A DNA stretch of 64,000 bases from Nitrospirota bacterium (GTDB lineage: Bacteria > Nitrospirota > UBA9217), in the NCBI GenBank assembly GCA_963737155.1, contig CAVTRN010000002.1:2048001-2112000 (forward strand), read 5' to 3'. Positions 11,754 through 63,518 of the stretch are shown here, piece by piece. Within the stretch, counting starts at the first letter, position 1. Each line of letters opens with the position of its first letter. Below the pieces are notes generated by a model that saw only the letters and a program-made list of their open reading frames with translations, did not search any database and was not told the origin of the DNA. A program made the position numbers and the translations under genes.

Positions 11754-11905
11754 TTTGTCACCTCCTATACAAATCAATCCTGATGACCTGACACACAGAA
11801 GAATTACAATAACCTGACCATGGAATATTTCCCTTCCCTATGAACGACGGAAAGACCGTCAGGTTGCTCGTGTGCCTTGGCTAGTCGTGAATTTGCGTCT
11901 GTTAA

Positions 11906-13562
11906 CCTAACCCGGACAAGCCGGAACCAAGAGGTTTTATAAAAACCATGATACAATGAAGGCTCTACTCATTGTAGTCATGGAGGTTGCTATGATGATT
12001 CCTGAACGCTACCAAGATAAAATAGCCGGTTCACTATCCTGCTATGACCGCATGATCATGCAGGGCACGCTGCCCGGCTGGTGCTTCGATAAGGGGATGA
12101 CGGCATTCCTCTATGCCCGACAGATCAAGATTTTCGATTATGCCCAGTTCGCCAAAGCGCTTCAGGAAAAAGTCCGGGAGAACGCTGAGGGCCTCGCGAA
12201 TGAGAACAGCATTGAGATCGAGTTCATCCGCAAGCTGGGTGCGTTCCGTAAAGAGGCCCGGATCAAAGAAATCATCAAAGCGCGTGGCGAGCAACCCGGC
12301 CTTGTTCATATCTTCTCGGCCATGGAAGCCTGCACCAGCTACAAACCCTGGCACGACAAAAACACCGGCAAGACCTTTCTCAAGTATGATTCCGGAAAGT
12401 GTCTCCACTATTACTTCTACTTCATCGACAAGACGTTCGGCCTGTGCTACCTCCGCGTTCCCACCTGGGCACCGTTCCGGCTCCAGTTCTATATGAACGG
12501 CCACAACTGGCTGGCGGCGAAATTGGCAAAAAAGAAAATCCCCTATGTTCTTCGGGAGAACGCGTTTCTCTCTATCGATAATTTTCCCAAAGCCCAGGAG
12601 CTTTCTGACAGCATCAAGGTGTCGGACTTACACCATGCACTGGACAGATTCGCTAAACAATACTGCCCGGTCGGTAACGGGTACGGACTTACCTACCACT
12701 GGAGCACTATGCAGGTGGAATATGCCACCGACATCGTTTTCAAGAAGCAATCGGACCTGCACACGTTGTATGAGCAAATCGTTCGAACCGCCATTCACTC
12801 CGTGAAACCGGAGAATATCGCGACCTTTCTGGGTCGGAAGCTCCACGGCAATTATCAAGGCGAAATGGGCAACAACTTCAACACCCGAATTCAGGGAACA
12901 CGGATCAAGCACCATATGGGCGCTTCATCCATCAAGATGTACGACAAGTTCGGCAGCATCCTCCGGATTGAGACCACGACCAACGACGTCTCGGAGTTCA
13001 AGCACTATCGGGAAGTCCAGTCGCGGATCGGAGATCCTGTCCACAAGAACGCACCCATGAAGAAGAACATCTACAGCCTGTTTGACCTTACGGCGATCTT
13101 CAAGGCCTCGAACCGCCGTTATCTTGAGTTCATCTCCACGTTCGACGACCAAAGCGCGGGAATCAATAACCTTGATAAAATTTCAAAGACCGTGGAAACA
13201 GGCGACCGTTCCTACAAGGGCTTCAATCTCTTCAGCGACGATGATCTCAAACTGTTCGAGGTTCTCGCCCGCGGCGAGTTCAACATCAACGGACTTCAGA
13301 ATAAATCTCTACGAAAACAGCTGCCATCCGTGACGAGCAGTACCATGACGAGAATTCTGAAACGGCTTCACGTCCACGGCATTATTCGGAAAGTCGGCAA
13401 AACATACAAGTACTACGTTTCAAAACTCGGCAAGGCTGTTATCGCTGCGGGATTGACCATCCGAAATATGTCTGTAATCCCGCAACTGGCGCATGTTTAA
13501 TGCATATTCACCAAATTGTTCTACCCATTTTGAGAAGCTTTTGATTCTTTAGTTACTAATGT
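11906..13562 (+). mobile_element. 1657-bp insertion element, copy 1 (no terminal inverted repeats; CTAA at both ends)
   Basis: Near-identical to the reverse complement of 21453-23109; identity starts at CCTAACCCGG and ends at TTAGTTACTAATGT; flanks are unrelated. Confidence 0.92.
11992..13500 (+). CDS. Putative transposase, Rep_trans-like core plus C-terminal winged HTH
   Basis: Only long ORF of a duplicated element; GGAGG RBS before ATG 11992; motifs KCLHYYFYFID, QVEYATD, IKMYDK, LRIETT; wHTH-like C-terminus. Confidence 0.8.
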   Translation: MMIPERYQDKIAGSLSCYDRMIMQGTLPGWCFDKGMTAFLYARQIKIFDYAQFAKALQEKVRENAEGLANENSIEIEFIRKLGAFRKEARIKEIIKARGEQPGLVHIFSAMEACTSYKPWHDKNTGKTFLKYDSGKCLHYYFYFIDKTFGLCYLRVPTWAPFRLQFYMNGHNWLAAKLAKKKIPYVLRENAFLSIDNFPKAQELSDSIKVSDLHHALDRFAKQYCPVGNGYGLTYHWSTMQVEYATDIVFKKQSDLHTLYEQIVRTAIHSVKPENIATFLGRKLHGNYQGEMGNNFNTRIQGTRIKHHMGASSIKMYDKFGSILRIETTTNDVSEFKHYREVQSRIGDPVHKNAPMKKNIYSLFDLTAIFKASNRRYLEFISTFDDQSAGINNLDKISKTVETGDRSYKGFNLFSDDDLKLFEVLARGEFNINGLQNKSLRKQLPSVTSSTMTRILKRLHVHGIIRKVGKTYKYYVSKLGKAVIAAGLTIRNMSVIPQLAHV

Positions 13563-13618
13563 CTCTTCTCCTGGATAAAATGCTATGTTAAGTTATATCG
13601 AATTTAACCAGCAGGATT

Positions 13619-13776
13619 TCAATGGTGCTCATCATCGCCGTGTTCTTCATGATGTTCTTCATGATGATCATCATGGCCACCGTCCCCAGGTCCTCCATGG
13701 TCACCCCGCCACCAACAACCGTTGCTGGATACGAGCAACATTACACCGATTATCAATAGTCTAATTTTTTCCACAT
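13619..13776 (-). CDS. His/Asp/Glu-rich small lipoprotein-like peptide, paralog 1 (GTG start at 13774, or ATG at 13776 with a frameshift in an A6 tract)
   Basis: VEKIRLLIIGVMLLVSSNGCWWRGDHGGPGDGGHDDHHEEHHEEHGDDEHH*; homologous to 14183-14338. Confidence 0.7.
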
Positions 13777-14182
13777 AATATTGCCATCCATTGCTTTGTT
13801 TTTTTCTAGTCGAATGAATTTCCTACTGAAGTTGTGTCTTTATTTTTAAATAGATTCTTTTCAACAGGTGCCCCTTCTTCAAGGAGTTGAGTCGTGGCAC
13901 GTCATAAACTTACGCCTGTTTGCTAAATACGGAAAAACCACTTACCTTAATCTGTTGTCTTTTAACTGGATACGAAGCTACTAAGGTAAAAGGAAAATGG
14001 GGCTATTTTAAAGACTTATGATTTTCGAATATGGCAGCATCGCCGCAAGTGGCTTGTTTTACGGGCAGATCGTTGATCCCTCAGCGAAACGCCGCGTAAC
14101 TGCGTCTACCATATTTATTGTAACAGGTTGAGTCAAGTAAATGCCACTAACCTAATTGAACTTGACCGAAACCGGCCGCATT

Positions 14183-14338
14183 TTAATGGTGATCCCCATG
14201 CTCATCACCGCCGTGATCTTCATGATGTTCATCATGGTGGTGGTCGCCGCTCTCAGGTCCTCTATGGCAGCCCCAAAAACTATTGCTGGATACGACCAAC
14301 ATGACGCCGATTACCAATAGTTTAATTTTTTTCCTCAT
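14183..14338 (-). CDS. His/Asp/Glu-rich small lipoprotein-like peptide, paralog 2 (51 aa)
   Basis: MRKKIKLLVIGVMLVVSSNSFWGCHRGPESGDHHHDEHHEDHGGDEHGDHH*; signal-peptide-like N-terminus and Cys; below the 60-aa ORF-track cutoff. Confidence 0.78.
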   Translation of the reverse strand: MRKKIKLLVIGVMLVVSSNSFWGCHRGPESGDHHHDEHHEDHGGDEHGDHH

Positions 14339-14655
14339 AATATTGTCATCCATTCTTTGTTTCTGTCAGCTCGAAAAAACTTCTCTAAGGTCTCCTTTAG
14401 CCACCGCCACTGATTCATTAAAATACGTCAACCTTCTCCTGTAAGTCGCGAATCACAAACTCAACTTCAAGGCTTATATACCCATAGAATGCTGACAAAT
14501 AATGAACGAGAATAATCCATGTCAAACAATATGTTTGTAAATTAAAGTATAGCACAATATTCGTTATAAATTAATAGCATAGAACGATTTGTGTGTTGAT
14601 CTCAGTTTTCTGCATGCGCCCGATATTTGAATTACACCTTTGTTGAGTCTCTAAC

Positions 14656-14684
14656 TTGAAACAACACGAACAGTGCTCTATACT
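14656..14684 (+). promoter_or_regulatory. Sigma70-like promoter upstream of the Usp gene
   Basis: TTGAAA-17 nt-TATACT. Confidence 0.55.
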
Positions 14685-14815
14685 TAAAATAAGGGAATGG
14701 ACAATAAATGTACGTAAGACTTATAATAAATCCACACTATAACGATTTACCATTCATTGATACAAAAGAACATCGGTTTGGTTTCTCCGTGAATTATTAA
14801 AAAAGTGGAGGTCTT

Positions 14816-15265
14816 ATGATTTTAAAGATTCTTGTACCAATAGACGGTTCAAAAGTGTCACGGAAGGCGGCAAAATATGCGGTCGAGCTCGCAAAACAGA
14901 CTGGCGCATCTTTGACGCTGCTTAGTGTTATCGATAACCGCTTCTTAGTCGGTCAGTCGGTTTCGGCTTCTGCTTCACCGACCCATTTAAAAGAGTCTGT
15001 CGCAGATTATCTAAAGCAGTCAGCACAATCCTCTACGGACGAAACAGCAAAGGTTTGCGAACGGAATCGTATTCAATACAAAGCGGTAATAAGGACAGGA
15101 CATCCTGTGGAAGAAATTGTAAACGAGGCAATTAAATCGAAGGCTGACCTGATTGTTATAGGCTCCCATGGCAAAAGCGCCCTTAAAGCGGCCGTGCTCG
15201 GTAGCATTACGTACGGCGTAATGCACAAGGATACGAAAATCCCTGTGCTCATCGTGAGGCGATGA
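14816..15265 (+). CDS. Universal stress protein (UspA family)
   Basis: KILVPIDGS...GHPVEEIV...DLIVIGSHG...LGSITYGV...PVLIVR; GGAGG RBS. Confidence 0.93.
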   Translation: MILKILVPIDGSKVSRKAAKYAVELAKQTGASLTLLSVIDNRFLVGQSVSASASPTHLKESVADYLKQSAQSSTDETAKVCERNRIQYKAVIRTGHPVEEIVNEAIKSKADLIVIGSHGKSALKAAVLGSITYGVMHKDTKIPVLIVRR

Positions 15266-15414
15266 TTTACTCCCGATAGAGAAGCTCGTTCTCATTATTA
15301 AGTGAGCAGTAATTGGACTAAGGTGCTTATATTCTGTCTTTGTCGCCAGCCGACCTATTTCATATGTACTGACTACTGCATTGATGGTTTCGTAGAAGAC
15401 CTCTTTCCCAAACA

Positions 15415-15580
15415 GATGGGAAGCGTTAGCGATCAGACAGTGGGAAATATTCTAAAAGCGGCGCGGTTTGGTGCCCGCGCCCGAGCCGAAAAAAACCACC
15501 ACATGGAAAAAGTTCAGCCGGACTCATCGGGACCTGCTTGTAGCAATGGATTTCTTCACCGCGAATGTGTGGAAAAAGAG
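15415..15580 (+). pseudogene. Integrase-core (rve) transposase remnant
   Basis: VSDQTVGNILK, a frameshift, then PAPEPKKTTTWKKFSRTHRDLLVAMDFFTANVW, typical of the region ahead of the first catalytic Asp. Confidence 0.7.
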
Positions 15581-15684
15581 CCTGAATTTGTCTGCTTCCA
15601 CGCATCACAGTGGAACAATGCGGGCCTTCCAACTCATTACAATAGAATACCTTTGAAATTTAATCTTACTTCCCAAAGCTTGCG

Positions 15685-15810
15685 TCTTATGCTTATTCCC
15701 CAGCATCACGGCCTTTGCTTCATTTGCCACACGGTATTTTACAACCATCTTCGTCGGGATCTGATCCCTACCCTGTTGCTGTGAACAACCCATACGGGTC
15801 TTGCTGCTGA
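15685..15810 (-). pseudogene. HU-family DNA-binding protein C-terminal remnant
   Basis: KTRMG...IPTKMVVKYRVANEAKAVMLG resembles KARMGRNP.TGE.I.IPAK.VVKFRVAK..K..VLG. Confidence 0.5.
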
Positions 15811-16197
15811 TCTGCGGTGGACCGTATAGCAAAATTCTAGCGACGAAGTCCTCGCTGTTTCTTATATTGATAATAAATATTTATTTTGATTTTTATCGTG
15901 ACTGTGATCCTTGCGAGATTACGACATGTTGGCGTGTTCAGTTAAGAGTTCCAGTCGTTCCAGTTTCCTTAGGACAAAAGCGGAAACTGTGCTAATCTCG
16001 TCTTGACCAATGAAGATGTTGACGGTATCATGGCTTCAAAAATGGTCCCAATAATTTATCACCCTAATCAGTTGAGACATAGGGACTTATTGAGCCAGGT
16101 CTCTGGAATCTTATTGGAACAGTATTTGTAGCATTATTTAATATGTGTTATATGTGAAGGCATATCACCAATGAGGAATTTAAAAAGAGGTAGAAAG

Positions 16198-16581
16198 ATG
16201 AAACATGTTTTAATAATGGTATGTTTGTTTTTCGTTATGACAGGATGTGCATTTGCAGAAACTCACAATTGGAAATTCATCTGTGCAGTTAAAATCAAAA
16301 CTAATAATGTATTTTATTATTATGATGCCAATAGTGTTGAGGTTAAGCGAATGCTCCGCGATGTCAATGTTTTGGCGAAAGATGAAAATGGGATATCAGA
16401 GAAACTAAATAAGATGGTTTTGTGGGAGATAAATTGTGAAACAAAGCAATTTAGAGGTTTAAATTTTGTTCACTATAACGATGACGGTAGTGTAAAATCT
16501 ATCTCTGATGAACCTTCAGAATTGATTAATATTGTTCCCAAGTCTATGATGGATTTATTACAAAATATTCTCTGTAAGTAA
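16198..16581 (+). CDS. Exported surface-adhesin-E-like protein
   Basis: Signal peptide; YYYDANSV...WEINCETKQFR...HYNDDG...IVPKSMMD...ILCK pattern; AT-rich. Confidence 0.65.
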   Translation: MKHVLIMVCLFFVMTGCAFAETHNWKFICAVKIKTNNVFYYYDANSVEVKRMLRDVNVLAKDENGISEKLNKMVLWEINCETKQFRGLNFVHYNDDGSVKSISDEPSELINIVPKSMMDLLQNILCK

Positions 16582-16649
16582 AGTATAATCCTGTAATATG
16601 AGAATCAGCAATATTGACCCATAGTGGCATTGCTGTTCAATTCTTTTTA

Positions 16650-16828
16650 TTAACACGGCTTTTGCAGTCGCTGTCTACGTTTCACGCATAGTGTCGCCAC
16701 GGTGCATTCAAAACTAGATTCCGGCTGATGACCAGGCTTGTCCGGGCGGAATTGACAAGCCGCTGAATCAGCCAAAAAGTTTTCATCTTTCTACTGTTTC
16801 TCCCTTCCCCAGGCTTATCCTGGCGCGA
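16650..16828 (-). mobile_element. Group II intron 5' (domain I) fragment without an RT ORF
   Basis: Minus strand reads TCGCGCCAGGATAAGCCTGGGGAAGG...GCCCGGACAAGCCTGG...AGCCGGAATCTAGTTTTG...GTGAAACGTAGACAGCGA...AAAGCCGTG, resembling bacterial group II intron 5' ends (GTGCG start degenerate). Confidence 0.6.
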
Positions 16829-17075
16829 GATTAAAAACTTCAAATGAGAATATGCGCATTAACAACGAAGAAGAGAGTTAATCAGGTTGGTCTTGTGTTC
16901 CCTGTTTCTCCTCCCTTTCGGTTTGAGGAGTGCCCCATTTTTTAACAAATGTGGGATGTCTATGCCCCACACAGATCATACTATGTCACTCACACCTGTC
17001 AAGAATAAAACATTATGCGGCCCACCGCATAACATTTTTTTGTCTGACTTTGGTGTTCACCATATTCATCCTGCC

Positions 17076-18311
17076 TCATTTCTTCGATTCCAGGGCGTCG
17101 GTCTGTACCAATTGCGGAAATAATCGTATCCAGAGCGCCACGACGATAATTGTGCCAATGCCGCCGATCAGGACGGCAAAGACAGCGCCAAACCAGGCTG
17201 CAGTGATCCCAGACTCAAACTCTCCCAATTGGTTCGAGGTTCCGATGAACAACGAGTTAACAGCGCTTACCCGGCCCCGCATTTCGTCAGGCGTCTCGAT
17301 CTGAACCAGCGAGTGCCTGATGACTACGCTGACCACATCGGCGGCTCCAAGCACGGCAAGGGCGGCCAAGGACAGCAGGAAAGATGTCGATAGAGCGAAC
17401 ACGATGGTCGCGATGCCGAAAATCGCCACAGCATTGAACATGGTCTTGCCCACACGATGTCTGAGCGGACTGCGCGCCAGGAAAAGGGACATGGCGAGGG
17501 CACCCACTGCGGGTGCCGAACGAAGTAGGCCTAGCCCCCACGGTCCGGTCATCAGGATATCGCGCGCATAGATAGGCAAAAGGGCCGTAGCTCCGCCGAG
17601 AAGCACAGCAAAGAGGTCGAGGGATATGGCACCCAGAACCTCAGGACGGCTGCGGATGAAGGCGATGCCGGCGAACACCGATTTGATGCTCGCAGGTTCA
17701 CTCACGACGGGAGCGCGGCCGGGGCGGAGGAGACCAAGAAATACGCTCGCAGTCATGAACAGGACCCCTGCTACTGCATAGACCTCGGTCGGGCCTACCA
17801 TATACAATAGGCCACCGAGAGCCGGCCCGACAATAACCGCCGTCTGCATTGCCGACGCAGACCAAGCAACTGCTCGGGGAAAATACTCGCCGGTGACCAG
17901 TCCGGGTAGTAGCGACTGCATGGTAGGCCCTTCAAAAGCATGTACAGCGCCGACGACAAACATGATTACGAGGATGGTCTCCTTACTCTGCCAGCCAGCG
18001 GCACTTCCCCAGGCCATTGTGAAGGCGGTAAGGCCTTCAACGATCTGACAGATACGTGCAATGGTGCGGCGATCGTACCGATCTGCAGCGTGGCCCACGA
18101 CGAGCGTCAGCAGGAACATGGGCAGAAATTGCGCAAGCCCGACGAGACCCAGATATAGCGCACTGCCAGTAAGTGCGTAGATCTGCCAACCCACGGCTAC
18201 GGCTTGCATCTGGAAGGCGACCATCGTCGCTGTCCGAGCGAACCAAAATAGGATAAATTGACGTTGTCGCAGGATCGGTTGTGTTTCAACCTGATCGAAA
18301 GGAGAGGTCAT
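17076..18311 (-). CDS. MFS transporter (EntS/MFS_3-like)
   Basis: 411 aa, about 12 TM segments; GHAADRYDRR motif A; DLFAVLLGGATALLP; TPDEMRGRV. Confidence 0.92.
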   Translation of the reverse strand: MTSPFDQVETQPILRQRQFILFWFARTATMVAFQMQAVAVGWQIYALTGSALYLGLVGLAQFLPMFLLTLVVGHAADRYDRRTIARICQIVEGLTAFTMAWGSAAGWQSKETILVIMFVVGAVHAFEGPTMQSLLPGLVTGEYFPRAVAWSASAMQTAVIVGPALGGLLYMVGPTEVYAVAGVLFMTASVFLGLLRPGRAPVVSEPASIKSVFAGIAFIRSRPEVLGAISLDLFAVLLGGATALLPIYARDILMTGPWGLGLLRSAPAVGALAMSLFLARSPLRHRVGKTMFNAVAIFGIATIVFALSTSFLLSLAALAVLGAADVVSVVIRHSLVQIETPDEMRGRVSAVNSLFIGTSNQLGEFESGITAAWFGAVFAVLIGGIGTIIVVALWIRLFPQLVQTDALESKK

Positions 18312-18522
18312 GTCGTTATTTATAATATTCCTTGCAGGATACTACTACGAAGGTTTAATCATCTCTTGTTTCAAATAACTCCGTGATGCTTCTTTTCCCG
18401 ATGACATCTAGACCTCTTTCAAGGGGGACTTTTCTGATTCTGTCTGCACCGGTCAAATTCTTTGCGCATCTAACGAATTTCTGGTCATCTTCGGCCGTCT
18501 GGAGAATATGATAAATCCCGAG

Positions 18523-19053
18523 TTATCTCGTCCATGTCGTCGTTCTCCCGAGGAGATATATGCCGATGAAACCCCTTAAATTTAGTTGGCTAGGAGACAA
18601 CAGTGTCATCTGGCCGCTGTAAGTCTTTCCGTTGTCCGGGTTGTAAATCTTTCCATCCGTCCATGAGCCGGCACCGGCATACATGAAGTCGTAGAGAATC
18701 TGAAGACCAACGATAGGATATTTTCTCAGGTTCGGGTTCGGGTTGTTATGATCGAGTGCCGGCGTACCTGGCGTACCCTCCTTTGAATCAGCCGGATAAT
18801 TCGGGTCCCTAGACCAGACAATTTTGCCGCAGTACTTTACGCCGCATTTATAGATCATTATTTCTGCTTCTTTTCCCTGGGTATTCCACACTCCCAGAAT
18901 ACCATCCGAGCCGGCAGCATGGGCTGCTGCTGTCACACCCATCACCAGGACCACAAGAGATATGAATATCCGCTGACTCATTTTAAGCGTTGAAACAAGC
19001 ATTTTGAATTGTCTCCCATAAGTTGAAAATAGCATGAAGAAGGTTTCCTGCAT
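18523..19053 (-). CDS. DUF2147-family exported protein (start may be 18981)
   Basis: ILGVWNT...YCGKIVW...DHNNPNPNLR...GKIYNPDNGKTYS...LRGFIG..LLGRTTTWTR. Confidence 0.88.
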   Translation of the reverse strand: MQETFFMLFSTYGRQFKMLVSTLKMSQRIFISLVVLVMGVTAAAHAAGSDGILGVWNTQGKEAEIMIYKCGVKYCGKIVWSRDPNYPADSKEGTPGTPALDHNNPNPNLRKYPIVGLQILYDFMYAGAGSWTDGKIYNPDNGKTYSGQMTLLSPSQLNLRGFIGIYLLGRTTTWTR

Positions 19054-19600
19054 TCTCTCTCATTTCCGGGAATTCATCCCTGTAAACTGCAAATACAGAC
19101 GGGAAAGCGATATCCGCAACTGCGAGAAAATTACGGCTAAACCCGCAGACAGATATCTGCTTTAAAAGCCACGACCATAAACTAACCCGAATTCTTATTG
19201 ATCAGACGATAATTACCGAAGGATTATGCACAAGAGAGATCAATTTCAATCAGAAAGACATGATTTTCATTCCTGAAGGTCGTGACCGGGGAAATCCTCT
19301 CATTGGCGGCGAATAAAATATTTATAGTTCGTTTTTTAACTCCTCCCGCAAGAATTAAACGTGGTCCTTGACAGGTCTTTCGGCTTAGTGCCACTTACCC
19401 CTCTTCCCATCATCATATTACTTAAGACAGTAGCTTGTTGTGTTTCATTCCTTTCACGGTTGTGGAGCGGCGGGAGAATCTCACTCTTCTTCCCTGACAT
19501 CCTTGCAATTTTTTTTATTACGAAATTAGGATATTCCGGCACCTCTCAACATTAATAAAATTACACTATTTATCTCTGCCATCTGCATTTAATAACCTGC

Positions 19601-20587
19601 TTACTTCAGGAAATCTTCAAAGATATTTTTCCCATAATCAAGCACCTGGTAAAGTTGGTACATTTCACCCTTTCCAAAAGCGGGTTTTTTCTCTCGCCAT
19701 TTTTCCAGATGCCCTTCAGAACAAAAGAAGTTCATGAATGGGCAAAACGTCTTTGCGGTACATCCGCATTGTTCCCGGTTGCTGACGAATTCAACAACGC
19801 TTTCGGGAACACAGGATGCAATTTTGCAGTGCTTCACTTCGATCTTAATTTCCTTATCGCACTCAGGACAATGAGATCGAACAGAAATGTCCTCTCGAAG
19901 CATAAAATGGATACCTAGAGCGTCTGTTGCGCAGAGGGCATATACTTCATGCCCATCCTGAAAGACAACTTTATGGCGAGTTACTTTAGCAGAAAAAGGG
20001 TACGCAGAAATAATTTCGCCACCTTCCGTCGTTAGAATGTCTGCCCTATGCAGTTTTTCGACGATACGATAAGCTGATTCGAGGGATGGCAACATCATTA
20101 CCTCGGTGATCATTTTATCGGATGGGGGCTTGCCGGTCCTTCCGAACTCTTTCAGGATATATTTACGCGTCTCGTCTTCCGATTGACTCAAGCGCGCTTG
20201 CGCCACTCTTCCTTTTACCGTTTCCCCGATCAGGTCCATAAGACTTTTTGTAACTGTCTTTCTTTTAAAAGATGCGTCCCCCATTCCGCAATTTCCCTCC
20301 CTCATCGCTTTTCGAAGCGTATCAACTGATGGGACATTCGCGAGCCAGCCCGACTCGTCCTTGAACATCCTTCAGGAAAAGCCGGTGATGTCCTGCGGCT
20401 GCAATTCCTCTCCATCAAAAAAGACCGATGGCGATCCGCTGAGTTTCAGCTCTGCCGCTTTTTCATCGCTGATTCGATAAATACTTACATCAGCATGAAT
20501 CTTTTCGGCTTTTAAAGCAAGGGCAATATTCTCCTTTAACGTATCCTCGGAGCCGCATCCTTGTGATACGTAGCAGTCGATTTTCAT
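19601..20587 (-). CDS. Predicted selenoprotein: thioredoxin-like (DUF2703-like) domain with in-frame UGA, continuous with an alkylmercury lyase MerB-family domain
   Basis: ORFs 20372-20587 and 19601-20368 share one frame: ...GSPSVFFDGEELQPQDITGFS-U-RMFKDESG...VPSVDTLRKAM...; MerB motifs AYPFS, YALCATDALG, SHCPEC, TFCPFMNFF. Confidence 0.8.
20332..20370 (-). promoter_or_regulatory. Bacterial SECIS-like stem-loop just 3' of the UGA (20372-20374)
   Basis: Lower stem GGAUGUUC/GAAUGUCC, upper stem CGAGUC/GGCUCG, G-rich apical loop GGGCU starting 20 nt after the UGA. Confidence 0.75.
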
Positions 20588-20925
20588 GCTCTCTCCATTT
20601 GCGTATTCAGTTCATAAAAGATTATTAACGTCGGATTCATGATGTAACGAGGCTGAAATATGAGCAAATCACGCCATTCTTAAGACCTCGGATGAGTATA
20701 TGCTTGGTGTTTTTAGTTGTCAACGAGTTCGATTACATTACATACATATAGAATCTTGTGTATGCCGTTATAATACCATGTTGCATCTCGCTATTTTCTG
20801 CCCAATTGATCATGTCAATATTAACTCAGAACCCACATAGAAAAAGAGGAACCCTGCAAATATCAGATGCCATAAACACTTTAGGGACGAATAGTTCGCG
20901 ACTCTGAGAGAGAACACGGACTAAT

Positions 20926-20955
20926 AAAGCCTGTCCAGAATCAGGACAGGCTTTT
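20926..20955. terminator. Intrinsic terminator downstream of ssb
   Basis: AAAGCCTGTCC-agaatca-GGACAGGCTTTT hairpin. Confidence 0.75.
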
Positions 20956-20979
20956 ACGTGCACTCAATTATGTGACCAT

Positions 20980-21402
20980 TCAAAACGGTATTTCAGCATC
21001 ACCTGCCGGTACTTCAAATTCAGGCACCTGCTTTAGATCTGTGCTGGTACCTGTAGCCGAACTATTACCGTCCCTTTTGGGCATGAAGTTGACACTTTCC
21101 GCCACAACGTCTATTTTGCTTCGTTTTTGGCCGGTTTCTTTATCTTCCCACCGCCGCTGTTGCAAACGACCATCTATCATGACAGAATCGCCTCTATGAA
21201 GATACTGTCCACAATTGGTGGCTTGTTTGCCGAAGACAACGATATCAATGAAACTCACCTCTTCCTTCGTCTCCTCTCCCTGTTTGTACTTCCGGTTTAC
21301 TGCCAAACCGAAGTTCGCTACAGTAACACCGCTCGGGGTGTTCTTTACTTCCGGATCGCGTGTCAGGTTCCCCAGCAGGATAACTTTATTGAAGCTTGCC
21401 AT
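20980..21402 (-). CDS. ssb: Single-stranded DNA-binding protein
   Basis: MASFNKVILLGNLTRDPE...C-terminal EIPF; GGAGG RBS before ATG 21402. Confidence 0.95.
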   Translation of the reverse strand: MASFNKVILLGNLTRDPEVKNTPSGVTVANFGLAVNRKYKQGEETKEEVSFIDIVVFGKQATNCGQYLHRGDSVMIDGRLQQRRWEDKETGQKRSKIDVVAESVNFMPKRDGNSSATGTSTDLKQVPEFEVPAGDAEIPF

Positions 21403-21452
21403 AGGTTGAATCCTCCAATCATATTTTGTAACATGATCTGATGGGATCAATT

Positions 21453-23109
21453 ACATTAGTAACTAAAGAATCAAAAGCTTCTCAAAATGGGTAGAACAAT
21501 TTGGTGAATATGCATTAAACATGCGCCAGTTGCGGGATTACAGACATATTTCGGATGGTCAATCCCGCAGCGATAACAGCCTTGCCGAGTTTTGAAACGT
21601 AGTACTTGTATGTTTTTCCGACTTTCCGAATAATGCCGTGGACGTGAAGCCGTTTCAGAATTCTCGTCATGGTACTGCTCGTCACGGATGGCAGCTGTTT
21701 TCGTAGAGATTTATTCTGAAGTCCGTTGATGTTGAACTCGCCGCGGGCGAGAACCTCGAACAGTTTGAGATCATCGTCGCTGAAGAGATTGAAGCCCTTG
21801 TAGGAACGGTCGCCTGTTTCCACGGTCTTTGAAATTTTATCAAGGTTATTGATTCCCGCGCTTTGGTCGTCGAACGTGGAGATGAACTCAAGATAACGGC
21901 GGTTCGAGGCCTTGAAGATCGCCGTAAGGTCAAACAGGCTGTAGATGTTCTTCTTCATGGGTGCGTTCTTGTGGACAGGATCTCCGATCCGCGACTGGAC
22001 TTCCCGATAGTGCTTGAACTCCGAGACGTCGTTGGTCGTGGTCTCAATCCGGAGGATGCTGCCGAACTTGTCGTACATCTTGATGGATGAAGCGCCCATA
22101 TGGTGCTTGATCCGTGTTCCCTGAATTCGGGTGTTGAAGTTGTTGCCCATTTCGCCTTGATAATTGCCGTGGAGCTTCCGACCCAGAAAGGTCGCGATAT
22201 TCTCCGGTTTCACGGAGTGAATGGCGGTTCGAACGATTTGCTCATACAACGTGTGCAGGTCCGATTGCTTCTTGAAAACGATGTCGGTGGCATATTCCAC
22301 CTGCATAGTGCTCCAGTGGTAGGTAAGTCCGTACCCGTTACCGACCGGGCAGTATTGTTTAGCGAATCTGTCCAGTGCATGGTGTAAGTCCGACACCTTG
22401 ATGCTGTCAGAAAGCTCCTGGGCTTTGGGAAAATTATCGATAGAGAGAAACGCGTTCTCCCGAAGAACATAGGGGATTTTCTTTTTTGCCAATTTCGCCG
22501 CCAGCCAGTTGTGGCCGTTCATATAGAACTGGAGCCGGAACGGTGCCCAGGTGGGAACGCGGAGGTAGCACAGGCCGAACGTCTTGTCGATGAAGTAGAA
22601 GTAATAGTGGAGACACTTTCCGGAATCATACTTGAGAAAGGTCTTGCCGGTGTTTTTGTCGTGCCAGGGTTTGTAGCTGGTGCAGGCTTCCATGGCCGAG
22701 AAGATATGAACAAGGCCGGGTTGCTCGCCACGCGCTTTGATGATTTCTTTGATCCGGGCCTCTTTACGGAACGCACCCAGCTTGCGGATGAACTCGATCT
22801 CAATGCTGTTCTCATTCGCGAGGCCCTCAGCGTTCTCCCGGACTTTTTCCTGAAGCGCTTTGGCGAACTGGGCATAATCGAAAATCTTGATCTGTCGGGC
22901 ATAGAGGAATGCCGTCATCCCCTTATCGAAGCACCAGCCGGGCAGCGTGCCCTGCATGATCATGCGGTCATAGCAGGATAGTGAACCGGCTATTTTATCT
23001 TGGTAGCGTTCAGGAATCATCATAGCAACCTCCATGACTACAATGAGTAGAGCCTTCATTGTATCATGGTTTTTATAAAACCTCTTGGTTCCGGCTTGTC
23101 CGGGTTAGG
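21453..23109 (-). mobile_element. 1657-bp insertion element, copy 2 (inverted relative to copy 1)
   Basis: Same ends and length as 11906-13562; one synonymous difference noticed (GGC at 13398 vs GGA at 21617). Confidence 0.92.
21515..23023 (-). CDS. Putative transposase, copy 2
   Basis: Protein identical to that of 11992-13500. Confidence 0.8.
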   Translation of the reverse strand: MMIPERYQDKIAGSLSCYDRMIMQGTLPGWCFDKGMTAFLYARQIKIFDYAQFAKALQEKVRENAEGLANENSIEIEFIRKLGAFRKEARIKEIIKARGEQPGLVHIFSAMEACTSYKPWHDKNTGKTFLKYDSGKCLHYYFYFIDKTFGLCYLRVPTWAPFRLQFYMNGHNWLAAKLAKKKIPYVLRENAFLSIDNFPKAQELSDSIKVSDLHHALDRFAKQYCPVGNGYGLTYHWSTMQVEYATDIVFKKQSDLHTLYEQIVRTAIHSVKPENIATFLGRKLHGNYQGEMGNNFNTRIQGTRIKHHMGASSIKMYDKFGSILRIETTTNDVSEFKHYREVQSRIGDPVHKNAPMKKNIYSLFDLTAIFKASNRRYLEFISTFDDQSAGINNLDKISKTVETGDRSYKGFNLFSDDDLKLFEVLARGEFNINGLQNKSLRKQLPSVTSSTMTRILKRLHVHGIIRKVGKTYKYYVSKLGKAVIAAGLTIRNMSVIPQLAHV

Positions 23110-49269: not shown

Positions 49270-49512
49270 CAAAACTATTTCATGGAACTGTTACCGCCTC
49301 ATTTGCAGAGTACGTGATATATCTTCATAATCCCCTCACTGTAACCGTTCCTTTACAGAATTGGTCTTCGGAAACGGCGAGACGAATCCGATGTTTCAGA
49401 TTTCTGTCACTGTAACAAATGAATGTTTCAATATTATGAAAATATTGTTACATTTTTATCATACTAAATTTGGCAAATTACACACCGGTTTCTTGCGATA
49501 TCAATCAGATGC
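49270..49512. repeat. Dispersed ~245-bp intergenic repeat, copy 1
   Basis: Colinear with 55832-56072 (shared blocks AACTATTTCAT, CTGTTACCGC, ATCTTCATAATCC, ATGAATGTTTCA, TATTATGAAAATAT, GTTACATTTTTATCAT, GTTTCTTGC.ATATCAAT). Confidence 0.85.
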
Positions 49513-49912
49513 TTCAATACGCTTTCTAAACTTCTGGCTTACGTCATATTCTGAGTAAGCGGTTGTTCTTCCATGAATTGCAGATTCACTTTTCACTGGG
49601 CATTAGCGACCATATGGAGGGTGACTCCCAATTCAACGCAAGGTGAGTACGAAGTCATGTCACCCAAAAGACGACTAATCTCGAGACAAAAAATCACCCG
49701 GCCAACTGGCAATACTCAATTTTAGTCAGTAATCATACCGATATTCTTCTGAATGATGGGTTTCACCTGTAATTCAGAAATAATGGTTGATGTCCCGATT
49801 ATATTCAATGGCTTCAAAATAAGGGAAATCGTTTTTTTATTCAATTTTTTTATAATATGGTTAATTAAATACAGATGCTTGCGCACAATAATCTCTCTTC
49901 TCATGTAATAAA

Positions 49913-55046: not shown

Positions 55047-55106
55047 CTGTCCGCGAGGGACCCGTGGCTTTCCGTCCCCGTCTTACAACGGGTTTGGCTT
55101 TAGCGG
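55037..55106 (-). ncRNA. c-di-GMP-I (GEMM-I) riboswitch
   Basis: CCGCTAAAG-CCAAACC-CGTT-GTAA-GACG-GGGACGG-AAAGCCACGGGTCC...GGACAGCCGGGTTGCC; GNRA tetraloop; G at the position that separates c-di-GMP from c-AMP-GMP binders. Confidence 0.88.
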
Positions 55107-55190
55107 CTTGGCAGCTTTTTTGAGCTTGTTATGCGCTCGAGATTAAATGTATATTTACCAATCAGGCAACCTCCCAAATTCTTCAAACAT

Positions 55191-55270
55191 AAAAAAACCG
55201 CTACGAATATTTCCGTAGCGGGCTCTAAGGTAACCCTGATTCAGGGGCCTAAAAAGTACCCGATGATAAT
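55191..55270 (-). ncRNA. Unknown structured RNA element plus intrinsic terminator, copy A
   Basis: CGGGUACUUUUUAGG-CCCCUG-AAU-CAGGGUUA-CCUUAGAGCCCG overlapping terminator CCGCUACG-GAAAUAUU-CGUAGCGG-U7. Confidence 0.55.
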
Positions 55271-55407
55271 GATTACGACCACATATTCTTGCGTCCCCAT
55301 CTTTCAATGGGTTCGTCTTTATCGGCTAACAAGCTTTTTTGAGCTTATTATGCGATCGAGATTGAATGTATGCTGACTAATTAGGCAACCTCTCGAATTC
55401 TTTAAAC

Positions 55408-55488
55408 AAAAAAATCCGCCACGAATATTTCCGTAGCGGGCTCCAAGGTACCCCTGATCCAGAGGCCTAAAAAGTACCCGATGATAAT
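55408..55488 (-). ncRNA. Unknown structured RNA element plus intrinsic terminator, copy B
   Basis: CGGGUACUUUUUAGG-CCUCUG-GAU-CAGGGGUA-CCUUGGAGCCCG plus CCGCUACG...CGUGGCGG-AU7; differences from copy A keep the pairing. Confidence 0.55.
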
Positions 55489-55831: not shown

Positions 55832-56072
55832 AGAACTATTTCATAAGACTGTTACCGCTTATTCCGCATACTGCGCGATAGATCTTCATAATCCACTCTC
55901 TAAACGTTCATTCGTGGATGTCAGTTCCATGGAACGGCGGAAAGAATACTACATTTAGATTTCGATCACTATAACACATGAATGTTTCATTATTATGAAA
56001 ATATGGTTACATTTTTATCATGCTAAATATAGCGACTGACAAATTAGTTTCTTGCAATATCAATGAGATGTT
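55832..56072. repeat. Dispersed ~245-bp intergenic repeat, copy 2
   Basis: Homologous to 49270-49512, same orientation. Confidence 0.85.
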
Positions 56073-56199
56073 TATTTTTTTTCGTCAATCTGTTTGCCCG
56101 ATAAATTAAACCGCGCCACATTTGTCGAAACAATCTATTTTTTTCAGCAACGAATTCGGTTTTCCATTAACGAGATTAAATTTATGATAAAATCAGTCG

Positions 56200-62615: not shown

Positions 62616-63518
62616 ATGATAAAGTCTTTCGCGATGCGGCTTGTTTATGCGATGCTTCTGGTTACGCTTGTGGCTTGTGGTGGCGGCAAAGAACCCACAG
62701 AGAGCGGGCTGTTTGGTGTTATTTGGTCAGGGACTCAATTTGTGGGAGTGGGAAGCAGCGGTATGATCCGCACCTCCCCCGATGGAGTGTCGTGGACCTC
62801 CCAGAATTCCGGCACAGCGGAGTCACTGCTCAACATTGCATGGTCCGGAACGCAATTTACGGCGGTGGGCAATCATGGGACCATTCTCACTTCTCCTGAC
62901 GGAGTAACGTGGACCACGCAGACCTCGGGAACTATCAGTGACCTCTACGGTGTTGCCTGGTCCGGGTTGCAGTTCGCAACAGTCGGCGATGCCGGTATCA
63001 TTTTTACCTCACCAACAGGAACGCAATGGACTCTGTCGACATCGGGCACTTCCATAAGTCTCTACGGCCTTGCCTGGTCCGGGACACAGTTCGTTGCTGT
63101 CGGGTATGACGGCGTAATCCTTACCTCTCCAGACACCGTTACCTGGACTGTGCGAACTTCGGGCGTTACCGAGCCTCTCGGCGGCATAATCTGGTCCGGG
63201 ACACAGTTTGTGGCGATAGGAAATAATGGCGCTATTCTTACCTCCCCTGATGGAGAGACGTGGACAGAACAAACATCCGGAGTAACAAACGGCCTGAGCG
63301 GGCTTGCGTGGTCCGGGACACAGTTCGTCGCCGTAGGGGACACGGGAACCATCCTTACTTCTCCTGATGCTGTAACATGGACGCTCCGGTCTTCGGGCAC
63401 ATCAATGTCCCTCTTTGGCGTTGCTTGGTCCGGAGCCCAATCTCAGTTTGTAGCGGTGGGATGGTGTAACGTCATCCTCACCTCCCCGGACGGGGTAACG
63501 TGGACAAAACATTCTTAG
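62616..63518 (+). CDS. Lipoprotein built of ~40-aa beta-propeller repeats (about 7 blades)
   Basis: AGGAGG RBS; lipobox LVAC; repeats L.G.AWSGTQFVAVG..GTILTSPDGVTWT..TSG. Confidence 0.88.
   Translation: MIKSFAMRLVYAMLLVTLVACGGGKEPTESGLFGVIWSGTQFVGVGSSGMIRTSPDGVSWTSQNSGTAESLLNIAWSGTQFTAVGNHGTILTSPDGVTWTTQTSGTISDLYGVAWSGLQFATVGDAGIIFTSPTGTQWTLSTSGTSISLYGLAWSGTQFVAVGYDGVILTSPDTVTWTVRTSGVTEPLGGIIWSGTQFVAIGNNGAILTSPDGETWTEQTSGVTNGLSGLAWSGTQFVAVGDTGTILTSPDAVTWTLRSSGTSMSLFGVAWSGAQSQFVAVGWCNVILTSPDGVTWTKHS

What the first reader, a model, noticed from the sequence alone, without database searches (positions are those of the whole stretch)
11906..13562. CTAA-bounded mobile element with no terminal inverted repeats and a Rep_trans-like protein: candidate rolling-circle IS family
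Seen: two 1657-bp copies (11906-13562 +, 21453-23109 -) in unrelated flanks. There are no terminal inverted repeats, but CTAA occurs at both ends (cCTAAcccgg ... ttagttaCTAAtgt). Removing either copy leaves the same 8-mer, CCTAATGT. The ends carry hairpins: CCGG-acaag-CCGG, GGTTTT-ata-AAAACC, a long stem at 11947-11982 just before the RBS, and TTAG-tta-CTAA at the 3' end. I see no DDE or HUH signature in the ~502-aa protein. Established: Rep_trans/gpII initiators use an R.D.A.D-like metal motif, a catalytic Y(N/D)K and an R.E motif, and nick at CT^AAT (pT181) or TT^AAT (f1). Inference: QVEYATD, IKMYDK and LRIETT are these motifs in the same order, so this may be a sequence-specific, non-HUH tyrosine transposase nicking at CT^AA. 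Its C-terminal wHTH could lead pipelines to label it a regulator.
Basis: partly seen in the sequence, partly recalled or inferred. Interest (0 to 1): 0.85.

Follow-up and report, generated by a model that had tools for sequence, protein, structure and literature searches.

The report
New insertion sequence with Rep_trans-like transposase
This is an active 1.65-kb jumping gene that always lands at the five bases CCTAA, and its single protein, usually labelled a MarR regulator, looks like a rolling-circle replication nuclease rather than any known transposase.

Summary
The window's two copies belong to 7 near-identical full-length copies in this genome.

- **Ends.** In 35 of 35 full copies from six genomes, the element starts CCTAA|CCCGG-N5-CCGG-AA. 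It ends ...CTAA in 32 of 35. There are no inverted repeats.
- **Target.** Two uninterrupted paralogous sites show one CCTAA before insertion.
- **Derivatives.** Short MITE-like derivatives with the same ends fill sister genomes.
- **Protein.** The 502-aa protein has no Pfam or NCBIfam catalytic domain. It belongs to a family of 7065 clusters.
- **Fold.** A confident AlphaFold model (pLDDT 94-95) has two beta-alpha-beta4-alpha modules plus a winged helix. Foldseek matches TBP-fold proteins and Inoviridae replication proteins.
- **Active site.** Invariant D19, E243, Y317, R325 and E327 sit on the strands that carry the Rep_trans active site.
- **Against.** Profile comparisons with Rep_trans are negative. 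No RepDE hit was listed.

Catalysis, nick position and rolling-circle copying are inferred, not shown. I found no prior description in print. This scan had already noted other copies of this element in the same genome (e1-6373427, e1-4719955).

The parts
11906..11910 (+). Left junction pentanucleotide CCTAA. It is read as the target sequence, not part of the element.
   Evidence: It precedes CCCGG in 7 of 7 own copies, 35 of 35 full copies in six genomes and 33 of 39 MITE-like loci. A single CCTAA-like sequence is present in two uninterrupted paralogous sites.
11911..13559 (+). Element proper, 1649 bp, if cleavage is 3' of CTAA. Any cut within CTAA gives the same products.
   Evidence: Limits of identity among the 7 copies, plus the empty-site comparisons. 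Metagenome contigs break at 11905/6 and 13560/62.
11911..11926 (+). Left-end core CCCGG-ACAAG-CCGG-AA. The 4-bp CCGG stem lies at 11912-11915 and 11921-11924.
   Evidence: It is conserved across phyla with loops ACAAG, ACGAG, ATAAA, CAAAG, CATAG and CGTAG. It is folded in the MFE structure. The stem never varies, so covariation can say nothing.
11925..11947 (+). Second small palindrome AACC-AAGA-GGTT, overlapping GGTTTT-ATA-AAAACC.
   Evidence: It is folded. It is present in many full-length lineages and is AAAA...TTTT in Lachnospiraceae copies. It is absent from many MITE-like copies, so it is probably not required in cis.
11946..11983 (+). 14-bp bulged hairpin whose 3' arm runs into the Shine-Dalgarno GGAGG (11982-11986). 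TGATACAAT, a possible extended -10, lies in its 5' arm.
   Evidence: Energy -10.2 kcal/mol, z -4.3. A hairpin pairing at least 3 SD bases occurs in 16 of 17 lineages with a confirmed ATG, each with a different sequence. The promoter was read by eye only; the scan tool found 0 sites.
11992..13500 (+). Gene for the 502-aa protein. Module 1 covers residues 1-230, module 2 covers 231-385 and the winged helix covers about 415-500.
   Evidence: ORF. Homologues begin at this ATG. Models have pLDDT 94.0 and 95.1.
13524..13559 (+). Right end: conserved motif CCCATTTTGAGAAG (13524-13537) and terminal ...GTTACTAA (CTAA at 13556-13559).
   Evidence: A (G/C)CCATTTTG motif lies about 27 nt from the end in G000, MITE-like, Lachnospiraceae and Acidobacteria copies. 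The terminal tetranucleotide is CTAA in 32 of 35 copies.
21456..23104 (-). Second copy of the element. Its CCTAA target lies at 23109-23105 and its right-end CTAA at 21459-21456.

Best explanation
This is an autonomous insertion sequence of a previously unclassified and very widespread family.

**The protein.** Its only protein is the transposase. The N-terminal 385 residues form a TBP-like saddle of two beta-alpha-beta4-alpha modules. This is the fold of Rep_trans rolling-circle initiators and of archaeal Rep-Arvir proteins. A C-terminal MarR-like winged helix follows.

**The proposed chemistry (inferred).** A metal is held by D19, E243 and E327. A tyrosine, most likely Y317 in K-x-Y-x-K, nicks one DNA strand at or in CTAA. 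It does this at the left junction (CCTAA|CCCGG hairpin), at the right end (...CTAA|) and at a CCTAA target. Each nick forms a 5'-phosphotyrosine link that is resolved by strand transfer.

**The outcome.** The element moves without inverted repeats and without a conventional duplication, always ending 3' of a CCTAA. This resembles IS200/IS605 peel-and-paste or IS91 rolling-circle transposition, but with a non-HUH enzyme.

**Cis elements.** The left-end CCGG-N5-CCGG hairpin and the right-end CCATTTTG motif are the likely recognition sites. A hairpin over the ribosome-binding site keeps read-through transcripts from making transposase.

**Shown:** mobility, the ends, the target, the fold class and the conserved residues.
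**Inferred:** nuclease activity, the nucleophile, the nick position, single-strand intermediates, and copy versus cut.
For: **Mobility**
- There are 7 near-identical copies in unrelated flanks.
- Metagenome contigs carry two further flanks that are not in this genome.
- 288 confirmed relatives occur in many phyla, many on contigs of 1.64-1.75 kb that hold only the element.
- The family was found in 10 of 401 sampled genomes of the phylum, often as fragments.

**Ends and target**
- The left junction is CCTAA|CCCGG-N5-CCGGAA in 35 of 35 copies, and the right end is CTAA in 32 of 35. These copies come from six genomes whose proteins are 57-60% identical to this one.
- Of 39 further loci with upstream sequence, 36 have CCTAA.
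- Of 39 MITE-like loci, 33 have CCTAA.
- Empty sites: a paralogue reads AACCTGATGT where the filled site reads AA-CCTAA[IS]CTAA-TGT. The neighbouring 120-bp repeat unit reads CATTAGGGTTTATGG where the filled unit reads CATTAG[IS]TTAGGGTTTATGG.
- The right tetranucleotide differs from the left CTAA in 3 of 35 full copies and in 3 of 17 MITE ends that I could read. This argues against a simple duplication.

**Protein**
- No catalytic Pfam or NCBIfam domain was found in the query or in any of the 70 family members scanned.
- The models have pLDDT 94.0 and 95.1, with the two-module topology.
- Foldseek against BFVD gave 4 hits at E<=1e-3. They include an unnamed 303-aa protein (E 1.4e-4, probability 1.00) and 'GST REP [Inoviridae sp.]' (E 9.5e-4, probability 0.99). 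TBP-fold proteins also matched (EsV-1-53, TM 0.51 normalised to the target; Megaviridae TBP).
- TBP 1mp9_B was the only PDB hit to the catalytic part with probability above 0.7.
- Carr 2016 (passages read): the Rep_trans sheet is two 5-strand modules with TBP connectivity, and the motifs lie on strands 6, 9, 10 and 11.
- Wang 2026 (section 26 read): the metal ligands are D46, D142 and E214, with catalytic Y191.
- Invariant D19 lies on strand 1, E243 with D247 on strand 1', K315-x-Y317-x-K319 on strand 4', and R325-x-E327 on strand 5'. These are the same order and the same strands as in Rep_trans.
- Rep-Arvir has the same catalytic domain plus MarR-like winged-helix architecture.
Against: - No sequence-level link to Rep_trans was found. 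PF02486 finds nothing in this genome.
- hmmsearch of the family profile against Rep_trans ORFs gave a best E of 1.9.
- hhalign gave a probability of 0.2% for the whole protein and 0.5% for module 2.
- PDB sequence searches gave no Rep protein.
- RepDE and RepSTK1 are not among the 50 listed Foldseek PDB hits, and no PDB hit reaches E<=1e-3.
- The Foldseek TM-scores of the viral hits are low (0.2-0.5) with high rmsd.
- I could not superpose the active sites in 3D.
- Rep_trans motif II (T/SxY/ExG) has no clear counterpart, and motif I is QxE rather than RxD.
- Y141 and Y143 are also invariant, so Y317 is not the only candidate nucleophile.
- In Rep_trans origins the nick lies in a hairpin loop. 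Here CTAA lies beside the hairpin, not in it.
- Insertion orientation relative to GC skew is 4:2 with one ambiguous copy. There is thus no sign of the strand bias typical of IS608-type single-strand transposition, although n is only 7.
- No circle junction was seen, but only contigs were available.
Confidence: 0.6

Rival explanations
1. The element moves by conservative site-specific recombination. It would excise as a double-stranded circle and integrate by strand exchange across a 4-bp crossover core (CTAA) shared by element and target. This is how IS607, IS110 or tyrosine-recombinase elements work, but the enzyme here would have a novel fold.
For: - CTAA is present on both sides of every insertion and once in the empty sites.
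- Target choice is strict (CCTAA).
- There are no inverted repeats.
- The right-side variants CTTA and CTCA, paired with a left CTAA, could arise from recombination into imperfect cores.
- There is no orientation bias relative to replication.
Against: - The fold and the conserved residues resemble single-strand nick-and-join enzymes.
- They do not resemble any recombinase. No recombinase, DEDD or serine-recombinase family or fold was found.
- The two ends are entirely different in sequence, so there are no paired recombinase-binding arms.
Confidence: 0.15
2. The element moves by hydrolytic cut-and-paste. The conserved acidic residues would form a DDE-like metal centre in a new fold, making staggered cuts that duplicate a preferred CTAA target, as in the IS5 group.
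For: - Five invariant or nearly invariant acidic residues are present: D19, E112, E243, D247 and E327.
- CTAA flanks both ends.
- I recall, without a check here, that members of the IS5 group duplicate YTAR tetranucleotides.
Against: - No terminal inverted repeats are present in any lineage.
- No RNase H-like fold or DDE family was found.
- The left and right tetranucleotides differ in 3 of 35 full copies and in 3 of 17 MITE ends.
- The invariant C before the left CTAA has no partner on the right.
Confidence: 0.08
3. The protein is not the transposase. It would be a replication initiator or regulator carried by an element that another enzyme, from the host or from another element, moves.
For: - Its relatives by fold are replication initiators and relaxases, not transposases.
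- It carries a regulator-like winged helix.
- G063 holds at least 35 MITE-like left ends but no full-length gene was detected. That assembly has 280 contigs, so a copy may simply be unassembled.
Against: - It is the only gene in a 1.65-kb unit.
- The ends and the gene travel together across at least four phyla, in otherwise unrelated genomes.
- No second conserved gene lies beside the copies.
- The insertion sites are many and need only 5 bp, unlike Xer-type or integrase-type sites.
Confidence: 0.05

Closest known systems
Rep_trans rolling-circle initiators and MOBT relaxases (PF02486: RepC/RepD of pT181/pC221, RstA of CTXphi, NicK of ICEBs1, Orf20 of Tn916)
   Same: - The predicted fold class is the same: two 5-strand modules with TBP connectivity.
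- The conserved residues come in the same order and lie on the same strands. These are the N' acidic residue, (R/Q)x(D/E)xAxD, (R/K)xYxK and RxE.
- Both have a separate DNA-binding domain C-terminal to the catalytic domain.
- Both have a small hairpin and a palindrome next to the presumed nick site.
   Different: - There is no detectable sequence or profile similarity.
- This protein has large helical insertions, extra invariant residues in module 1 (E112, Y141, Y143, R155), and no motif II.
- The DNA-binding domain is a true winged helix.
- The element is a multicopy chromosomal insertion sequence, not a plasmid, phage or conjugative element.
- In the review I read in passages, the listed Rep_trans roles are replication and conjugal transfer, and rolling-circle transposition is described only for HUH enzymes.
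Rep-Arvir / DUF7845 (RepSNJ2 of pleolipovirus SNJ2; Wang et al. 2026, PMC13107129)
   Same: - Both have an N-terminal TBP-fold catalytic domain followed by a MarR-like winged helix.
- The relation to Rep_trans is visible only by structure.
- Foldseek behaves the same way: the PDB gives only winged-helix hits, while viral models give TBP-fold and Inoviridae Rep hits.
- Both have an acidic triad plus a tyrosine, and a conserved hairpin nearby.
   Different: - PF25227 does not match this protein at E<=1.
- Rep-Arvir is archaeal, and it replicates viruses and plasmids.
- Rep-Arvir has a third C-terminal domain.
- This family is bacterial and behaves as an insertion sequence.
- Homology between the two was not tested directly, because no DUF7845 sequence was at hand.
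IS200/IS605 family (Y1 HUH TnpA, e.g. IS608)
   Same: - No inverted repeats and no conventional duplication.
- Insertion 3' of a fixed tetra- or pentanucleotide that stays at the left flank.
- A similar but not identical short sequence ends the right end.
- A subterminal hairpin, and abundant MITE-like derivatives.
- The IS608 features used in this comparison are recalled, not checked here.
   Different: - There is no HUH motif, no Y1_Tnp family match and no HUH fold.
- The protein is about three times larger.
- The right end has no hairpin.
- No orientation bias was seen.
IS91/ISCR family (Y2 HUH rolling-circle transposases)
   Same: - No inverted repeats and no direct repeats.
- A tetranucleotide target next to one end.
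- A transposase related to rolling-circle replication initiators (passages).
   Different: - The enzyme superfamily differs (HUH versus TBP-fold).
- No one-ended transposition products were identified here.
- The 618-bp extra segment beside one copy is unresolved.

Membership tests
Rep_trans (PF02486) | Significant match to the family profile | tested here: not met
   - Pfam scan at E<=1 gave no PF02486 hit.
- None of the 70 family members matched it at E<=0.1.
- A PF02486 search of the genome gave 0 matches.
- hhalign probabilities were 0.2% and 0.5%.
Rep_trans (PF02486) | Catalytic domain made of two 5-strand modules with TBP-like connectivity | tested here: inconclusive
   - The secondary-structure order fits in both models.
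- Foldseek hits TBP-fold and Inoviridae Rep models at probability 0.99-1.00, but with low TM-scores.
- No RepDE chain appeared among the listed PDB hits.
- No 3D superposition was possible.
Rep_trans (PF02486) | Motifs N' (D), I (RxD), II (T/SxY/ExG), III (YxK), IV (LxRxE) in this order | tested here: inconclusive
   - Counterparts were found for four motifs: D19, QxE243xAxD247, K315xY317xK319 and (I/V)LR325xE327. All are invariant or at least 90% conserved.
- Motif II was not found.
- The motif definitions come from passages of PMC5714925 and PMC4797284.
Rep_trans (PF02486) | Metal-dependent nicking with a 5'-phosphotyrosine intermediate | not testable with these tools
   This needs biochemistry.
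IS200/IS605 | HUH motif and Y1 transposase domain | tested here: not met
   No such Pfam or NCBIfam match was found. No HUH-fold hit was listed.
IS91 | HUH Y2 transposase | tested here: not met
   No Pfam or NCBIfam match was found.
IS110/IS1111 | DEDD (RuvC-like) transposase with a long non-coding guide region | tested here: not met
   No family match was found. The non-coding ends are only 81 and 59 nt.
DDE transposases (any IS family in NCBIfam) | RNase H-like DDE domain, terminal inverted repeats, fixed-length target duplication | tested here: not met
   - NCBIfam gave 0 hits.
- No RNase H fold was listed.
- There are no inverted repeats.
- The flanking tetranucleotides are not always identical.
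Rep-Arvir (DUF7845, PF25227) | Match to PF25227, and a TBP-fold domain followed by a MarR-like winged helix | tested here: inconclusive
   There is no PF25227 hit at E<=1. The architecture and the Foldseek behaviour match the published description.

The most novel reading that the evidence does not exclude
This would be a further catalytic class of prokaryotic transposase, beside the DDE, DEDD, HUH, serine and tyrosine-recombinase classes (that list is recalled). It would be a TBP-fold, Rep_trans-like tyrosine nuclease fused to a winged helix. It would carry out sequence-specific single-strand transposition into CCTAA. The family would be the bacterial, transposing counterpart of the archaeal Rep-Arvir replication initiators. 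The Rep_trans superfamily would then have produced plasmids, phages, relaxases and insertion sequences in parallel with the HUH superfamily. Thousands of 'MarR regulators' in databases would in fact be transposases.
Probability: 0.5. Interest if true: 0.9.

Novelty: categorically new. Interest (0 to 1): 0.85.

Why it matters
If the enzyme works as inferred, the standard list of transposase chemistries and folds gains a member. The parallel between HUH and Rep_trans nucleases would also become complete, covering replication, conjugation and now transposition.

The family is very large: 7065 clusters at 50% identity. It spans many phyla, including gut Lachnospiraceae, anammox bacteria and Acidobacteria. 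It has no Pfam or NCBIfam model and is routinely annotated as a MarR or ArsR regulator. Genome annotations, regulator counts and IS censuses are therefore systematically wrong for it.

Its short conserved ends and 5-bp target make the mechanism directly testable with oligonucleotides. A compact one-protein, site-specific single-strand integrase could also be of practical interest.

Tried and rejected
- **Sequence route to Rep_trans.** Everything was negative: the Pfam scan, the PF02486 genome search, hmmsearch, hhalign on the whole protein and on module 2, and PDB sequence searches. hhalign of module 1 against module 2 gave no sign of internal duplication (probability 0.5%).
- **Weak Rep_trans hits in other genomes.** These (E 1e-4 to 1e-5) are not relatives of this family.
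- **ESM Atlas.** It returned only unnamed clusters below 0.9, and nothing among named clusters.
- **PHROGs.** Only a weak regulator hit.
- **Homodimer prediction for residues 1-400.** No verdict.
- **Plasmid collection.** 13 records have distant relatives (20-48% identity). The two I followed were single or unhelpful for defining ends.
- **Orthologous empty sites in sister genomes.**
  - Copy 2: the flanks are not syntenic.
  - Copy L003: 618 extra bases plus the IS are missing in relatives, so the junction is unresolved.
  - Copy L004: nothing usable.
  - A G161 MITE site compared with G000: the intergenic region is too diverged.
- **Public runs.** No RNA holder was listed. Only Logan contigs were available, so circle junctions and rare excisions could not be seen.
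- **Promoter scan.** It found 0 sites in the element. The TGnTACAAT in this copy, and TTGCAT-17-TACAAT in Lachnospiraceae copies, were read by eye.
- **Covariation in the CCGG stem.** This cannot be assessed, because the stem never varies.
- **Literature.** I found no description of this family. ISfinder could not be queried.
- **Supplements not opened.** These were Fig. S5 of Carr 2016 (Rep_trans and Phage_CRI motif alignment) and Dataset S1 and Fig. S7 of Wang 2026. They may bear on the motif mapping.
- **Nick sequences.** The pT181 and f1 nick sequences could not be verified in the text I read.
Full report
**Observation**

The two 1657-nt copies are real: 11906-13562 on the + strand and 21453-23109 on the - strand. 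They differ at one synonymous position, 13398. The genome has 4.84 Mb in 2 contigs. It holds 7 full-length copies, each matching 1654-1657 of the 1657 nt, plus 3 partial or diverged matches. All seven reading frames are open.

Every copy has N|CCTAA|CCCGG on the left and ...GTTACTAA|N on the right, in unrelated flanks and without terminal inverted repeats. The other five copies have TGG, TAG, TAT, AAA and TCC after CTAA.

**The ends are a family property**

The search for related loci confirmed 288 stretches that encode relatives, and 80 were kept. They come from Thermodesulfobacteriota, Nitrospirota, Bacillota, Acidobacteriota, Planctomycetota, Chloroflexota and other phyla. Many lie on contigs of 1.64-1.75 kb that hold nothing but the element.

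In six genomes with 4 to 8 copies each, the limits of identity give elements of 1648-1728 bp. I examined 35 copies in all:
- The left junction is CCTAA|CCCGG-N5-CCGGAA in 35 of 35.
- The right end is CTAA in 32 of 35, CTTA in 1 and CTCA in 2.
- The base before CCTAA varies (A 10, C 13, G 2, T 10).
- The base after the right CTAA is only weakly biased (T 16, A 8, C 7, G 3, with one N).

I also examined 50 further loci. Of these, 40 had the left-end core within 260 nt of the gene, and 36 of the 39 with upstream sequence had CCTAA. The loop of CCGG-N5-CCGG varies (ACAAG, ACGAG, ATAAA, CAAAG, CATAG, CGTAG), while the stem never does. The right ends share a (G/C)CCATTTTG motif about 27 nt from the tip.

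**Non-autonomous derivatives**

Sister genomes of the same genus carry many short elements of about 150-260 bp with the same left core and right end.
- G063 gave 35 left-end matches, with 40 of 112 candidates scored. G161 gave 11.
- Right-end matches numbered 13 in G063 and 5 in G161.
- I fetched 40 such loci. Of these, 39 had the left core, and 33 of the 39 were preceded by CCTAA.
- I could read a right end by eye in 17 of them: 14 end in CTAA, and one each in ATAA, TTAA and GTAA. All three variants have CCTAA on the left.

The own genome also has two decayed mini-copies. G087 has a 426-bp internal-deletion copy.

**Target**

Two uninterrupted paralogous sites show what was there before insertion.
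- A paralogous locus reads ...TTTAACCTGATGTTTCTTCTCC. The filled site reads ...GTTAA-CCTAA[IS]CTAA-TGTCTCTTCTCC.
- One copy sits in a gene made of 120-bp tandem repeats. The neighbouring unit reads GCGTGC-CATTAGG-GTTTATGG. The filled unit reads GCGTGC-CATTAG[IS]TTAGG-GTTTATGG.

So the target holds one CCTAA, and CTAA stands on both sides after insertion. The right tetranucleotide sometimes differs from the left one. A plain 4-bp duplication is therefore less likely than an element that brings its own ...NTAA end and joins 3' of a target CCTAA. The exact cut within or beside CTAA cannot be told from sequence.

Metagenome contigs end at 11905/6 and 13560/62. They show two flanks that are not present in this genome. 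Orientation relative to GC skew is 4:2, with one ambiguous copy.

**Protein**

The 502-aa product has only sub-threshold winged-helix hits at residues 438-485 in Pfam. NCBIfam gave nothing, so no IS-family model matches. All 70 aligned relatives show only winged-helix families.

All 8000 candidates scored in the word-index search had E<=1e-3, and 120 were listed. NCBI names among them are 'MarR family transcriptional regulator'. A plasmid homologue is labelled 'ArsR family'. The exhaustive search found 7065 cluster representatives at E<=1e-3 and 771 at E<=1e-30.

Among 70 full-length members of 29-96% identity, these residues are invariant: D19, R20, E112, Y141, Y143, G150, P161, N169, N190, E243, F250, Y317, R325 and E327. 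K315, K319, D247, R155 and others are at least 90% conserved.

**Fold**

The AlphaFold2 models are confident. The full-length model has pLDDT 94.0 and pTM 0.85. The model of residues 1-400 has pLDDT 95.1 and pTM 0.91.

The order of elements is two beta-alpha-beta4-alpha modules:
- Module 1 has strands 11-26, 103-122, 127-146, 150-157 and 164-169.
- Module 2 has strands 236-250, 292-299, 302-309, 312-319 and 323-330.
- A winged helix follows.

Foldseek against the PDB gave no hit at E<=1e-3. There were only winged-helix regulators for the tail and, for the catalytic part, archaeal TBP 1mp9_B (E 0.05-0.1, probability 0.77-0.84, TM 0.46 normalised to the target). No RepDE chain was among the 50 hits listed.

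Foldseek against viral models gave 4 hits at E<=1e-3. Among them:
- an unnamed 303-aa protein (E 1.4e-4, probability 1.00)
- 'GST REP [Inoviridae sp.]' (E 9.5e-4, probability 0.99)
- further hits to EsV-1-53 (TM 0.51 normalised to the target), a Megaviridae TBP and another Inoviridae protein

The TM-scores are low (0.2-0.5).

**What the papers say**

Carr et al. 2016 (PMC4797284; I read passages):
- The Rep_trans catalytic sheet is two 5-strand modules with pseudo-twofold symmetry, and has the same connectivity as TBP.
- The conserved residues are R140, D142, A144 and D146 on strand 6. R189, Y191 and K193 are on strand 10. R212 and E214 are on strand 11.

Wang et al. 2026 (PMC13107129; I read section 26 and passages):
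- The metal ligands are D46, D142 and E214.
- Archaeal Rep-Arvir proteins combine a TBP-fold catalytic domain with a MarR-like winged helix.
- These proteins are related to Rep_trans only by structure.
- For them, Foldseek on the PDB gave only winged-helix hits, while viral models gave TBP and an Inoviridae Rep_trans protein.

My results repeat that pattern.

**Mapping by strand**

| RepDE | This protein |
|---|---|
| D46 | D19 |
| R140-x-D142-x-A144-x-D146 | Q241-x-E243-x-A245-x-D247 |
| R189-x-Y191-x-K193 | K315-x-Y317-x-K319 |
| R212-x-E214 | R325-x-E327 |

A consensus of 25 Rep_trans ORFs taken from genomes of this phylum shows the same RxDxAxD ... RxYxK ... RxE pattern. Those 25 ORFs came from the 30 loci that I examined.

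Against this, every sequence-based comparison is negative. Motif II has no counterpart. I could not superpose coordinates either.

**Regulatory hairpin**

The long stem at 11946-11983 is significant (z -4.3). I folded the leaders of 27 lineages. In 17 of them an ATG stood at the predicted start, and in 16 of those 17 a hairpin of unrelated sequence pairs at least 3 bases of the Shine-Dalgarno. I left the other 10 out because the start was mislocated.

I read this as the usual IS device that blocks translation of read-through transcripts. A likely promoter lies inside the hairpin, but I read it by eye and the scan tool found none. The right end has no significant fold.

**Mechanism and novelty**

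The most likely mechanism is nick-and-join by a metal-dependent tyrosine nuclease at CTAA. It would work either as peel-and-paste through a circle or as rolling-circle copying. None of this chemistry is shown.

In the review I read in passages (PMC5714925), the listed Rep_trans roles are replication and conjugal transfer, and rolling-circle transposition is described only for HUH enzymes. My eight literature searches found no description of this family. ISfinder could not be queried.

**Earlier notes**

Earlier notes of this scan had flagged other copies in the same genome with the same motif idea. They are leads, not support.

Noticed in passing
window 13563-21452: The two inverted copies bracket 7.9 kb, with their right ends facing inward. 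The bracketed genes encode a universal stress protein, an Adhesin_E-like protein, an MFS transporter, DUF2147, a MerB-like alkylmercury lyase and SSB. This could act as a composite unit. Copy 2 ends about 60 nt upstream of ssb.
   Followed up: partly
window 13585-13774 and about 14199-14340: There are two small His/Asp-rich ORFs with a duplicated leader (family D5). A paralogous pair lies at G000:C2 about 1532300-1532660. Earlier notes of this scan describe them (e1-6373419).
   Followed up: no
window 62831-63398: Five tandem 117-bp units of 63-74% identity (family D1) suggest a repeat-domain protein gene. A similar 120-bp repeat gene hosts copy L002.
   Followed up: no
window 55070-55488, 49395-49514 and 55954-56073: Short direct repeats of 80-126 nt at 82-93% identity include a hairpin-like GC-rich core (families D2-D4).
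   Followed up: no
L002:700-1124 (G000:C2:635493-635916): A different repeat lies beside copy L002. It is 98-100% identical at six other places in the genome.
   Followed up: no
L003:883-1500 (G000:C2:2154174-2154791): A 618-bp segment directly left of one copy is absent, together with the IS, from the orthologous site in G151, G218, G155, G087 and G063. It is unique in the genome and has no clear gene. Whether it arrived with the element is open.
   Followed up: partly
L144-L148, L156 (an Acidobacteriaceae MAG): Three of six copies have CTTA or CTCA instead of CTAA at the right junction. The left junction stays CCTAA, and five of the six right flanks begin with CG. This may mark the true cut after CT, or a tolerated variant end.
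   Followed up: partly
L009 (G000:C2:750465-750580) and L010 (G000:C2:634059-634400): These are decayed miniature copies in the own genome, made of a left end joined to a right-end remnant.
   Followed up: partly
L193 and other loci: Many assemblies hold the element as a lone contig of 1.64-1.75 kb. One contig name carries a coverage label of about 1619. This suggests very high copy number in some isolates.
   Followed up: no
L128 (Mycobacterium riyadhense plasmid, NZ_OY970457.1): A 20%-identical relative, annotated hypothetical, lies beside a small gene annotated 'transposase'. The record was reported with 4 matching places.
   Followed up: no
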